Assembly (NCBI GenBank): GCA_000004985.1
Contig: GG739293.1
Direction: 5' to 3' (one strand)
Length of the DNA stretch: 2,045 nt
From: Naegleria gruberi
Taxonomy: Eukaryota
Shown piece by piece: positions 1-2,045 of the stretch. A model generated the notes under the pieces. It saw only the letters and a list, made by a program, of their open reading frames with translations, did not search any database and had not been told where the DNA came from. The first letter of the stretch is position 1; each line of letters starts with the position of its first letter. The position numbers and the translations under genes are program-made.

Positions 1-2045
1 TGAACTAAATGATTTAAGTAATGAAAGAGCCTCAAAATCAACATCGTTAGCTTTGGAGCCAATTTAAGGTTTTTAACACTATTAATTCCTTCATCATTTC
101 CATAACACAAAGTCCAAACGGAATCAAATGCAATTTTTGATTGCTTGGATTTGAAATAGAACTGGCACTCAGAAGATTGACTATTAGTTTTGTGAATAAG
201 TTGTGTTAATAAATATCCTGTTAGAGATTCGAAACTGGTTGTGAGAGGAATATAAAATTGGTTGTACATGTCTTTGATACCTCTATAACAAGAACCATAC
301 TTTTTCTCCCATTCACTGCAAGAAATCTTCAACATTGTATATAACTGTTTAATGCTGGGCTTGAAAAAAAGATAGAAGTTAGCAAATGTATTTGTATCTC
401 CAATCCACTGAGCAACATAAATGTAATTGAATTCAAATTGAGGTGAAACAGACTGTAACTTGTTTTTCACTTCGTTATACTTTTCAAAATCACCATCTCT
501 ATGACCTGGGTGAATGATTGTACAGTAATACTGAAGAGGTAAATTGCTTCCACTATTTAAGTTGTTACTAATGGATCTTCCATCATCAAGACTAGTATCA
601 TATATCAAATTATTAGAAACTATAGATTCATTATTAAATGGATCATTGTAAAATAGATCTTGCAATAAACTCTTATCACTAAATAAACTACTGTTTTTGA
701 AATGATAGTTATATTTTTTCATACATTCCAACACCATGCGTGCATATTCAGAACTCATAAGCTTTGCATTAATATAATATTGATTTTCTATTTGTAAAAC
801 CTTGCTTCTTTCATCTGCACCATCATACAATCGGTGAATCAATCCTCTTTCTTTTACAGTTTCACCAAATGATTCTAAAGTGATTTTAAATAAACTCTGA
901 GAGGGTGGATCTGTTATCAAGTAGACAATTTGTCTCAATATGTAGAATTCTTTTTTGGTATTTGAAATATCTTCATCATCATCATTCATGAATTTTGTAG
1001 CATACCGTAAGAGATGTTGTTTACCATACTTATTTAAAATAGTATCATCCTCATTTACAATTCTCCACACTGCCAGAACTCTGTGGAAAAAACTCCAATC
1101 ACTGGAAAGAATAATACCTTTGGCATACTGTTTTAAATTTTCAGGAATATTTGTTAAAAACAAATCACAATCTTCGCTCTGTAATAGATAGCTTTCAAGT
1201 TTCTTAATTGAAGAAGGTTGTCTATTGTCATGCTTTCTCTTTGGTGTTTCAGTTATAGGACTATCATCTCCATTAGTACCTGTTGGTGATAAATCATTGT
1301 TGATGATAAAAGAATCATCGATGGTAGTTGCTTTTTGTTTGTCTTTAATGGATTTCCATAAACAGTAGAGAACAAATCTTTCAGCAGCTCTTTCATCCTT
1401 TAAATGCCCACAATTAAAGAAAAAAAACCATGTTATAATTGTTTTCTGTTTCTTAATTCCAATAAAACCATCCTCCTTTTCTAATGGTGGAGCACAATAA
1501 GATATGGCTGTTAAAAAGTTATGTAAATAATCTAATCTGGTAATATTTTGCTGAGTAGCCACACCTAAAAGTTTAGTATTAGCCAACCTATTGACTTCAT
1601 TGAATAGAAATTTATCCATCCTAAAGAGATATTTCTTCAGTATACACATGGTACTGTAAATCTTTTCTTCTCCTAAAATAGTAAATTCATTTAAAAGTTC
1701 CAACCCAGCATTAAACTTAAAATTTTCACTGAAAAAGTAGTGAAATAATAACTTATGAAGGGTATTTTTAGAGTTTTTCATGGGTGCCTCTTTCATACTA
1801 TATAGAAAAGATTTAAGTTTGCTCGAAAATGGTAAATTTTTAAAGGTTTTTTTAACTGCTTCACCAAATTCACAACATTCAACAATTACTTCATCTGTTA
1901 CCTGTGGAATTTTGTCGGCCACCACAAGATAAGAATTGAATCCTCCCACCACAACATGTTGTGTTGTGGGAATGAGTGTTTTGATATCTCCAACTTCAAG
2001 CTTTCCTTCTTTGGGTGTAACGACTGCAGTAATATGTTTTTGAGA
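1..2045 (-). CDS. Internal fragment of a large protein-coding gene, partial at both ends. 681 in-frame sense codons at 2045..3 with two leftover bases at 2..1. Product unidentified; a soluble protein longer than 681 aa.
   Basis: I reverse-complemented every 60-nt block by hand and found no TAA, TAG or TGA in this frame across the window. Translation begins SQKHITAVVTPKEGKLEVGDIKTLIPTTQHVVVGGFNSYLVVADKIPQ and ends LAPKLTMLILRLFHYLNHLV. With composition of about A=T=0.35 and G=C=0.15, a stop is expected in about 8% of random codons. The chance of 681 stop-free codons is therefore on the order of 1e-24. Every other frame is broken; the track shows only one 78-aa ORF. Codon use is coherent: AGA is 13 of 19 Arg codons, and TTA, AAA, AAT, GAT and ATT are favoured. 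The frame is open at both window edges, so the start and stop lie outside the window. Confidence 0.9.
364..370. repeat. Homopolymer A7 on the + strand (T7 on the coding strand), inside the CDS, encoding L-F-F (window residues 559-561).
   Basis: Sequence 361-373 is ttgaaaaaaagat. The reverse complement ctt ttt ttc is in frame. Confidence 0.9.
531..692 (-). other. Coding segment for a second low-complexity S/N/D-rich stretch (window residues about 452-505: SSLFSDKSLLQDLFYNDPFNNESIVSNNLIYDTSLDDGRSISNNLNSGSNLPLQ).
   Basis: Seen directly in the translation: Ser, Asn and Asp dominate and there are few large hydrophobics. It separates the central block from a C-terminal aromatic-rich block. Interpretation is compositional only. 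Confidence 0.35.
969..989. repeat. Short in-frame trinucleotide microsatellite: (TCA)4 at 973-984 with imperfect flanks. On the coding strand it is GAT GAT GAT GAA GAT, encoding the acidic patch M-N-D-D-D-E-D.
   Basis: Sequence 969-990 is atcttcatcatcatcattcatg. The codon phase was checked: D355 is 981-983, D356 is 978-980 and D357 is 975-977. Confidence 0.8.
1191..1319 (-). other. Coding segment for a low-complexity, probably disordered linker (window residues about 243-285: DSFIINNDLSPTGTNGDDSPITETPKRKHDNRQPSSIKKLES) with a short basic cluster PKRKH.
   Basis: Seen directly in the translation: a run rich in S, T, P, D, N, G and K with no hydrophobic core-forming stretch, flanked by aromatic and hydrophobic-rich blocks. 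Calling it disordered is an inference from composition only. Confidence 0.4.
1420..1427. repeat. Homopolymer A8 on the + strand (T8 on the coding strand), inside the CDS, encoding part of W-F-F-F-F (window residues 206-210).
   Basis: Sequence 1416-1430 is aaagaaaaaaaacca. The reverse complement tgg ttt ttt ttc ttt is in frame. Confidence 0.9.
1950..1963. repeat. Perfect 14-bp palindrome cacaacatgttgtg, with imperfect extension to about 1945-1968, inside the CDS. It encodes T-T-Q-H-V-V-V.
   Basis: Base-by-base pairing was checked around the centre catg at 1955-1958: seven perfect pairs, then a mismatch at 1949 and 1964. It contains the site ACATGT. Confidence 0.85.

What the first reader, a model, noticed from the sequence alone, without database searches (positions are those of the whole stretch)
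1..2045. The window is 100% coding: one stop-free minus-strand frame of 681 codons that the ORF track misses
The six-frame ORF track lists only a 78-aa + strand ORF. Hand translation of the reverse complement shows an unbroken frame across the whole window. The frame is open at both edges, which is evidently why the track did not report it. In DNA with about 30% GC, roughly 8% of random codons are stops, so an open run of this length cannot arise by chance. The real gene is longer than 2 kb and its protein longer than about 78 kDa. Nothing in the window is intergenic, so any regulatory signals and any system context must lie outside it.
Basis: seen in the sequence. Interest (0 to 1): 0.6.

Follow-up and report, generated by a model that had tools for sequence, protein, structure and literature searches.

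The report
Partial Naegleria gene, SAMHD1-like protein
The whole 2,045-base window is one uninterrupted piece of a protein-coding gene of the amoeba Naegleria gruberi, already in GenBank as a partial 'predicted protein'. This is an ordinary result; the only mild interest is that the protein belongs to a tiny uncharacterized protist family that seems to join a degenerate SAMHD1-like domain to a nuclease-like tail.

The parts
3..2045 (-). Open reading frame of 681 codons, open at both ends. Bases 1-2 are the start of codon 682. It is an internal fragment of a protein-coding gene.
   Evidence: no stop in this frame, 39-91 stops in the other frames; shuffles reach at most 186 open codons.
1650..2045 (-). 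Residues 1-132: an N-terminal extension upstream of the GenBank model's start. It is coding by statistics but has no detectable homologue.
   Evidence: P(no stop) is 1.3e-5, and the codon log-likelihood of 22.8 (z 4.5) equals that of the homology-supported blocks. BLASTP against the N-terminal parts of P0002, P0005 and P0006 is not significant.
270..1649 (-). Stretch covered by the existing GenBank model 'predicted protein, partial [Naegleria gruberi]' (P0001, 460 aa, residues 133-592).
   Evidence: 100% identity, query residues 133-592. The protein's only contig is 2,045 bases long.
597..1619 (-). Residues 143-483: mostly helical domain that corresponds to the SAMHD1/dGTPase-like HD-fold domain of homologue P0007. 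The family-invariant residues here are E150, R153, Y173, G213, D217, E222, I312, F320, L324, W327 and R328.
1584..1601 (-). Motif NEVNRL (family consensus E..RL..IK.LG). It aligns with the SAMHD1 segment QFQRLRYIKQLG at the start of the HD domain.
   Evidence: It is the top local hhalign alignment against human SAMHD1, though not significant on its own. It is collinear in the greedy alignment.
1377..1418 (-). Motif FNCGHLKDERAAER, the best-conserved block of the family (G213, D217 and E222 invariant). It lies where the HD dyad of SAMHD1 would be expected, but it is not an HD dyad.
1062..1100 (-). Motif DWSFFHRVLAVWR (F320, L324, W327 and R328 invariant).
   Evidence: coordinates.
1206..1325 (-). 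Residues 241-280: low-complexity, Ser/Thr/Pro/Asp/Lys-rich insert. Its length varies among homologues and it is absent in the shortest ones. It is probably a disordered linker, read in frame, not an intron.
   Evidence: Alignment columns 1201-1300. Model pLDDT is below 50 here. No GTAAGT/GTATGT donor-like site occurs on the coding strand.
186..536 (-). Residues 504-620: middle alpha/beta domain (strand-helix-strand-strand-helices).
   Evidence: It is predicted in both models: window model residues 508-620 with pLDDT 55-81, and P0007 residues 334-445. Mapping.
3..119 (-). Residues 643-681: the start of the C-terminal nuclease-like domain (VWTLCYG motif), cut off by the end of the scaffold before the conserved E...D...ExK residues.
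   Evidence: W2, E38, W63, D78, W81, E95 and K97 are invariant in six homologues. The window ends before reliably reaching the first of the catalytic residues (E38): the window residues that would correspond (about 660-681) do not align in register.
955..1191 (+). 78-aa antisense ORF, the only sizeable entry in the ORF list. It is a chance ORF opposite the real gene.
   Evidence: Its length equals the mean longest open run in shuffles, 77.5 codons.

Best explanation
The window is a complete small scaffold of the Naegleria gruberi nuclear genome. It consists entirely of an internal, intron-free fragment of one protein-coding gene on the minus strand.

The product belongs to a very small, uncharacterized family of eukaryotic (protist) proteins. 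The named members are heterolobosean: N. gruberi NAEGRDRAFT_59334 and two Willaertia magna proteins.

Shown here:
- the frame is open and coding;
- the source organism is N. gruberi;
- the protein is homologous to seven proteins;
- the family has its own set of conserved residues.

Inferred from a predicted structure of one homologue: residues about 143-483 adopt the fold of SAMHD1/dGTPase-type HD-domain dNTP triphosphohydrolases, but without the H..HD..D metal-binding residues.

Inferred from motif and predicted topology in homologues only: the missing 3' end of the gene encodes a PD-(D/E)xK-type nuclease domain with an intact E...D...ExK set.

Most likely mechanism (inference): the C-terminal domain is a metal-dependent nuclease. 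The degenerate SAMHD1-like module no longer hydrolyses dNTPs and instead binds nucleotides or nucleic acid, or drives oligomerisation, and so targets or gates the nuclease. A role in genome maintenance or in defence against viruses or mobile DNA is plausible but untested.
For: Open frame and coding statistics:
- 681 codons with no stop; codon statistics are coding-like.

Source:
- A 100% match to 'predicted protein, partial [Naegleria gruberi]', whose only contig is 2,045 bases.

Family:
- An exhaustive HMMER scan of 1.84 billion representatives gives seven homologues, E from 5e-36 to 1.5e-11.
- They are named as N. gruberi and Willaertia magna hypothetical proteins, plus metagenome and transcriptome proteins.
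- Two of them lie among typical eukaryotic genes such as Vps4, TAF2 and a DDX60-like helicase.
- Homologue genes are single-exon: gene length equals 3 x (aa+1).

Fold:
- The P0007 model has pLDDT 74 and pTM 0.78.
- The Foldseek top hit is human SAMHD1, probability 0.99.
- The best local hhalign match to human SAMHD1 is the E..RL..IK.LG block against QFQRLRYIKQLG.

Nuclease-like tail:
- E38, D78, E95 and K97 are the only invariant charged residues in six homologues.
- The predicted order is helix-strand-strand-strand-helix-strand at P0007 residues 499-595.
Against: - No sequence-based method links the family to HD domains or to any nuclease family: Pfam, NCBIfam, PADLOC, PHROG and PDB profile searches.
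- hhalign against SAMHD1 is not significant (probability at most 1%).
- The window protein's own model is unusable (pLDDT 46.7), so the fold is transferred from a homologue that is only 22-24% identical.
- That model rests on an alignment of only eight sequences.
- The putative catalytic nuclease residues are not in the window at all.
- Nothing here bears on biological role.
Confidence: 0.6

Rival explanations
1. The SAMHD1-like domain is still an enzyme. It would be a phosphohydrolase that binds metal through non-canonical ligands (for example the invariant D217, E222, E150 and Y173). The protein would then be a bifunctional nucleotide hydrolase and nuclease.
For: The invariant residues of the domain are mostly charged or polar and sit in the blocks that occupy the positions of the SAMHD1 active-site helices in the greedy alignment. 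The fold match is to active enzymes.
Against: No histidine is invariant in the family. The nearest to it, H214, is Thr in one Willaertia member. HD-superfamily catalysis depends on His/Asp metal ligands (established knowledge). The residue-level correspondence is unreliable (hhalign probability 1%).
Confidence: 0.15
2. The structural resemblance is an artefact of a shallow-alignment AlphaFold model. Under this reading the protein is a lineage-specific, largely helical scaffold with no relation to HD enzymes, and the E...D...ExK pattern is coincidental.
For: There are only eight sequences in the alignment. The five models range from pLDDT 54.6 to 74.1. All sequence and profile comparisons are non-significant. 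The Foldseek E-value is only 0.035.
Confidence: 0.2
3. The ORF belongs to a mobile element or a virus-derived insertion (for example a transposon nuclease or an endogenised giant-virus gene) rather than to a host gene. This would explain the tiny unplaced scaffold.
For: The scaffold is only 2 kb and unplaced. The family is small, patchy and paralogous within species.
Against: There is no match in phage records (DNA or protein), IMG/VR contigs or BFVD structures. There are no terminal or internal repeats of note. Homologues sit between ordinary eukaryotic housekeeping genes. Base composition and codon bias are uniform.
Confidence: 0.05

Closest known systems
Naegleria gruberi hypothetical protein NAEGRDRAFT_59334 (XP_002671977, 1,842 aa), with Willaertia magna KAL9652003 and KAL9644435
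   Same: They are significant homologues over window residues about 140-660 (E 5e-36, 8e-28 and 4e-29; 28-39% identity). They share the conserved blocks E..RL..IK.LG, FNxGHLKDxxxAER, DWxxFHxxLAVWR and WTLCxG. All are uncharacterized and have no Pfam domain.
   Different: They are paralogues or distant relatives, not the same gene. They carry different extensions: a 1,040-aa N-terminal region in NAEGRDRAFT_59334, and a leucine-rich, repeat-looking C-terminal tail in KAL9652003 (LRR_4 at only E 0.017). The first 132 residues of the window protein match none of them.
SAMHD1 / bacterial dGTPase-type HD-domain dNTP triphosphohydrolases (e.g. PDB 7ujn, 6pwy, 9mr6, 2dqb)
   Different: Sequence identity is 8-15%. 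There is no significant profile match. No Pfam HD hit occurs in any member. The H..HD..D metal ligands are not conserved. There is no SAM domain. The family has an extra C-terminal nuclease-like domain.
PD-(D/E)xK (restriction-endonuclease-like) nucleases such as NERD-domain proteins or Hjc-type resolvases (comparison from general knowledge)
   Same: In homologues the C-terminal domain has an invariant Glu on a helix, then Asp and Glu-x-Lys on consecutive strands 17 residues apart. This is the classical signature and order of elements.
   Different: No profile or fold-search hit to any nuclease family was obtained. The relevant residues lie beyond the end of the window.

Membership tests
Uncharacterized protist family typified by N. 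gruberi NAEGRDRAFT_59334 | Significant sequence similarity across the core (window residues about 140-660) | tested here: met
   phmmer against 1.84 billion representatives gave seven homologues, E from 5e-36 to 1.5e-11.
Uncharacterized protist family typified by N. gruberi NAEGRDRAFT_59334 | Family-invariant residues present (E150, R153, Y173, G213, D217, E222, I312, F320, L324, W327, R328) | tested here: met
   These columns are invariant in alignments A1 and A2, which include the window protein.
Uncharacterized protist family typified by N. gruberi NAEGRDRAFT_59334 | C-terminal domain with invariant E...D...ExK | not testable with these tools
   The scaffold ends about 35 residues before the ILWGG..FDxxW..ExK block. 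The window is the whole contig and no overlapping contig was found.
HD-domain superfamily, SAMHD1/dGTPase branch | HD-domain fold of the SAMHD1/dGTPase type | tested here: met
HD-domain superfamily, SAMHD1/dGTPase branch | Conserved H...HD...D metal-binding residues | tested here: not met
   No invariant His exists in the family. The invariant residues are E, R, Y, G, D, E, I, F, L, W and R. In the greedy alignment the HD dyad falls in a gap or opposite Y/G.
HD-domain superfamily, SAMHD1/dGTPase branch | Significant sequence or profile similarity to HD-domain models or SAMHD1 | tested here: not met
   No PF01966 hit in the window protein or in seven homologues. The PDB profile search found none. 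hhalign probability is at most 1%.
HD-domain superfamily, SAMHD1/dGTPase branch | dNTP triphosphohydrolase activity | not testable with these tools
   This needs biochemistry.
PD-(D/E)xK nuclease superfamily | E...(P)D...(D/E)xK active-site motif on an alpha-beta-beta-beta-alpha-beta core | tested here: inconclusive
   The motif is invariant in six homologues, and the predicted element order fits (P0007 residues 499-595). But it lies outside the window, and no fold-search hit to a nuclease was listed.
PD-(D/E)xK nuclease superfamily | Profile match to a described nuclease family | tested here: not met
   Pfam, PDB, PADLOC and NCBIfam searches of the C-terminal domains found nothing relevant.
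Prokaryotic, phage or defence-system gene (the framing implied by 'system context') | Match to bacterial, archaeal or phage protein families or phage DNA | tested here: not met
   PHROGs 0, NCBIfam 0 and PADLOC 0 hits. Phage blastn and tblastn gave no match. IMG/VR gave none.

The most novel reading that the evidence does not exclude
The gene belongs to a lineage-restricted amoebal family in which a SAMHD1-type dNTPase module has lost its catalytic metal site and been rewired as a nucleotide or nucleic-acid sensor. That sensor would gate a fused PD-(D/E)xK nuclease. In other words, this would be a previously unrecognized type of eukaryotic innate-immunity effector (for example against giant viruses of Naegleria), mechanistically parallel to bacterial sensor-nuclease defence proteins.
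Probability: 0.1. Interest if true: 0.6.

Novelty: new variant of a known kind. Interest (0 to 1): 0.22.

Why it matters
As a scan finding it matters little. It shows that an ORF track that drops edge-spanning ORFs can miss a window that is entirely coding, and that the existing GenBank model (460 aa) under-calls an ORF of at least 681 codons.

The protein itself is a modest lead. It belongs to an uncharacterized family in Naegleria and Willaertia with no domain annotation, for which this work gives a first, testable structural hypothesis: a degenerate SAMHD1-like fold plus a nuclease-like tail. If the hypothesis is confirmed, it would add an example of a pseudo-enzyme HD module fused to a nuclease in a deep-branching eukaryote.

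Tried and rejected
Sequence-family searches that found nothing useful:
- Pfam, PHROGs, NCBIfam, PADLOC and PDB sequence searches with the window protein gave nothing significant.
- A weak DUF7132 hit (E 0.002, below the cut-off) was not shared by any homologue, so I dismissed it.

Word-indexed protein searches:
- Searches with the protein and with the family alignment returned only the GenBank fragment itself. Low-complexity words probably swamped the candidate list.

DNA-level checks:
- Phage DNA and protein BLAST gave no match.
- Rfam gave only a sub-threshold chance hit.
- Repeat and tandem-repeat scans gave only short chance pairs.

Attempts to find or extend related loci:
- IMG/VR and metagenome contig scans found no relatives.
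- An exact-match scan to extend the contig found nothing.
- Look-ups of the encoding contigs for P0001 and P0002 were not on record.

Structure:
- The AlphaFold model of the window protein itself was too poor to use.
- The afdb50 library was unavailable.
- The BFVD fold search found nothing.

Profile comparison with SAMHD1:
- hhalign against human SAMHD1 and a vertebrate SAMHD1 alignment was not significant.

Other checks:
- Pfam on the N-terminal 1,043 aa of NAEGRDRAFT_59334 and on the C-terminal tail of the Willaertia protein gave no significant F-box, ankyrin or LRR call.

Readings rejected:
- A chance ORF.
- A bacterial or phage gene.
- An intron-containing stretch: there are no donor-like sites and homologues are single-exon.

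Full report
**Observation**

Translating the reverse complement of the window from base 2045 gives 681 sense codons and no stop. The other five frames contain 39, 61, 43, 40 and 91 stops. From the base composition the stop probability per codon is 0.082, so an open run of 681 codons has a chance probability of about 6e-26. In 2,000 shuffles of the window, the longest open run in any frame averaged 77.5 codons and never exceeded 186.

The mechanical ORF list shows a 78-aa + strand ORF (955..1191) as its longest entry. That length is what chance gives. The tool states that ORFs running off either end are not listed, which explains why the real frame is missing. Position-specific GC (0.37/0.30/0.26) is coding-like.

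**Is all of it coding?**

Residues about 140-660 are supported by homology (see the section on relatives). The first 132 codons have no detectable homologue. Even so, they are stop-free (P 1.3e-5). With a codon model trained on the homology-supported part, they score 22.8 in frame, against -20 and -42 out of frame, with z 4.5 against shuffles. This is the same range as leave-one-out blocks of the supported part, which score 16-31.

The last 21 codons are too few to test and were not placed in register by the aligner. No GTAAGT/GTATGT-type donor occurs on the coding strand. The homologous genes I could inspect are single-exon: gene length equals 3 x (aa+1) for P0003, P0004 and P0007. So I see no reason to invoke introns.

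**Source**

The only hit in the 5.8-billion-protein collection is a 460-aa protein annotated 'predicted protein, partial [Naegleria gruberi]'. It is 100% identical to residues 133-592 of the frame, and its only contig is 2,045 bases long. The window is therefore an entire small scaffold of a eukaryotic genome.

Three things follow:
- The contig cannot be extended from its own assembly. An exact-match scan of metagenome contigs for the scaffold end found nothing.
- The prokaryotic notion of nearby 'system context' does not apply.
- The gene is already annotated, although the model covers only 460 of the at least 681 codons. It stops short of homology that continues to about residue 660.

**Relatives**

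Pfam, PHROGs, NCBIfam, PADLOC and PDB sequence searches gave nothing significant. Phage DNA and protein searches gave no match. Rfam and repeat scans gave nothing of note.

An exhaustive phmmer scan of 1.84 billion cluster representatives found only seven homologues, with E from 5e-36 to 1.5e-11:
- N. gruberi NAEGRDRAFT_59334 (1,842 aa);
- two Willaertia magna hypothetical proteins;
- two proteins from one JGI metagenome;
- one protein from a Logan assembly;
- one protein from a EukProt transcriptome.

The two metagenome genes lie among ordinary eukaryotic genes, including Vps4, TAF2, a DDX60-like helicase and a CH-domain protein. None of the seven has a Pfam domain.

The alignments define a core that corresponds to window residues about 140-660. 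Its invariant residues are E150, R153, Y173, G213, D217, E222, I312, F320, L324, W327 and R328, grouped in the blocks E..RL..IK.LG, FNxGHLKDxxxAER and DWxxFHxxLAVWR.

**What lies beyond the window**

All full-length homologues continue past the WTLCxG block (window residues 643-649) for 157-273 residues. In an alignment of six of these tails the only invariant residues are W2, E38, W63, D78, W81, E95 and K97. The consensus is ILWGGL...QFDxCW...(Y)LGExK.

A Glu on a helix, followed by Asp and Glu-x-Lys on successive strands 17 residues apart, is the classical PD-(D/E)xK nuclease signature (established knowledge). In the model of P0007 the elements come in the expected order: helix 499-510, strands 520-524, 535-546 and 550-558, helix 565-579, strand 591-595.

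However, no profile search linked this domain to any nuclease family, and no convincing nuclease appeared in the listed fold hits. The assignment is therefore an inference. These residues are also not in the window, because the scaffold ends roughly 35 residues before the ILWGG block.

**Fold of the part that is in the window**

The AlphaFold model of the window protein itself was unusable (pLDDT 46.7). The model of the compact homologue P0007 (619 aa), built on the same eight-sequence family alignment, was acceptable (pLDDT 74.1, pTM 0.78).

I checked that my SAMHD1 sequence is exactly residues 113-462 of PDB 7ujn_A, then compared profiles. hhalign is not significant (probability at most 1%). 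Its best local match, though, pairs the family block E..RL..IK.LG with SAMHD1 QFQRLRYIKQLG, which is the start of the HD domain. A greedy alignment is collinear over 267 columns.

Mapping through the alignment puts this domain at window residues 143-483, followed by an alpha/beta domain at 504-620.

**The family is not a canonical HD enzyme**

The family has no invariant histidine at all. The position of the first metal-binding His region carries an invariant Tyr or a variable residue. The HD dyad falls opposite Y/G or in a gap, depending on the alignment. The defining catalytic motif H..HD..D is therefore not met, nor is any sequence-level membership criterion. The resemblance is one of fold only.

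**Interpretation**

High confidence:
- a real, truncated, single-exon N. gruberi gene.

Moderate confidence:
- its product is a multidomain protein with a SAMHD1/dGTPase-like but catalytically degenerate module, a middle alpha/beta domain and, in the missing 3' part, a PD-(D/E)xK-like nuclease domain.

Low confidence, pure inference:
- the nuclease is the effector, and the SAMHD1-like module serves for nucleotide or nucleic-acid binding or for oligomerisation that controls it.

Rivals:
- a still-active, non-canonical phosphohydrolase;
- an artefactual fold match from a shallow alignment;
- a mobile-element or virus-derived gene. I found no viral or repeat evidence for this.

**Verdict**

The finding is ordinary: a partial gene on a tiny eukaryotic scaffold, already in GenBank as a hypothetical protein. 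The only added value is a first structural hypothesis for a very small, unannotated protist protein family.

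Noticed in passing
window 270..1649 (-): The GenBank/JGI model for this scaffold (460 aa, residues 133-592) starts at an internal Met and ends at ...GIKD with no stop and no obvious splice donor. The open frame, and the homology to family members, continue for about 70 more residues downstream. Coding-like sequence also continues 132 codons upstream. The annotated model is too short at both ends.
   Followed up: partly
window 955..1191 (+): The 78-aa ORF that the ORF track reports is antisense to the real gene. 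Its length equals the mean longest open run in shuffled sequence (77.5 codons), so it is a chance ORF.
   Followed up: yes
window 306..425 (-), residues 541-580: hhalign of the family profile against a vertebrate SAMHD1 alignment put its best (non-significant, E 0.09) match between the family's middle alpha/beta domain and the C-terminal lobe of SAMHD1 (NPIDHVSFYCK...). This hints that more than the HD domain of SAMHD1 may be retained.
   Followed up: partly
window 183..308 (-), residues 580-620: There is a weak Pfam DUF7132 hit (E 0.002, 18.6 bits against a cut-off of 27). None of the seven homologues shares it at E up to 0.01, so it is probably spurious.
   Followed up: partly
P0006 (Willaertia magna KAL9652003) residues about 870-1170; P0002 (NAEGRDRAFT_59334) residues about 215-250: Family members carry different accessory regions. 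The Willaertia protein has a C-terminal tail of leucine-rich, LRR-looking repeats (LRR_4 only E 0.017). The N. gruberi paralogue has a long N-terminal region with an F-box-like LPFDLMFEIVSYIP stretch (PRANC only E 0.86). Neither reached significance.
   Followed up: partly
L001 1..3018 (+): On the 38-kb metagenome contig that carries homologue P0003, a 2,178-aa DDX60-like helicase gene (DEAD/ResIII/WHD_DDX60) lies about 7 kb upstream, with four unrelated genes in between. It is probably a coincidence, but DDX60 is an innate-immunity helicase in animals.
   Followed up: no
window 1206..1325 (-) and 546..650 (-): Two low-complexity Asn/Ser/Asp/Thr-rich inserts (residues 241-280 and about 466-500) are absent or much shorter in the compact homologues P0007 and P0008. 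They are typical of expansion segments in AT-rich protist genomes. They also probably explain why the word-indexed protein search failed to retrieve the real homologues.
   Followed up: no
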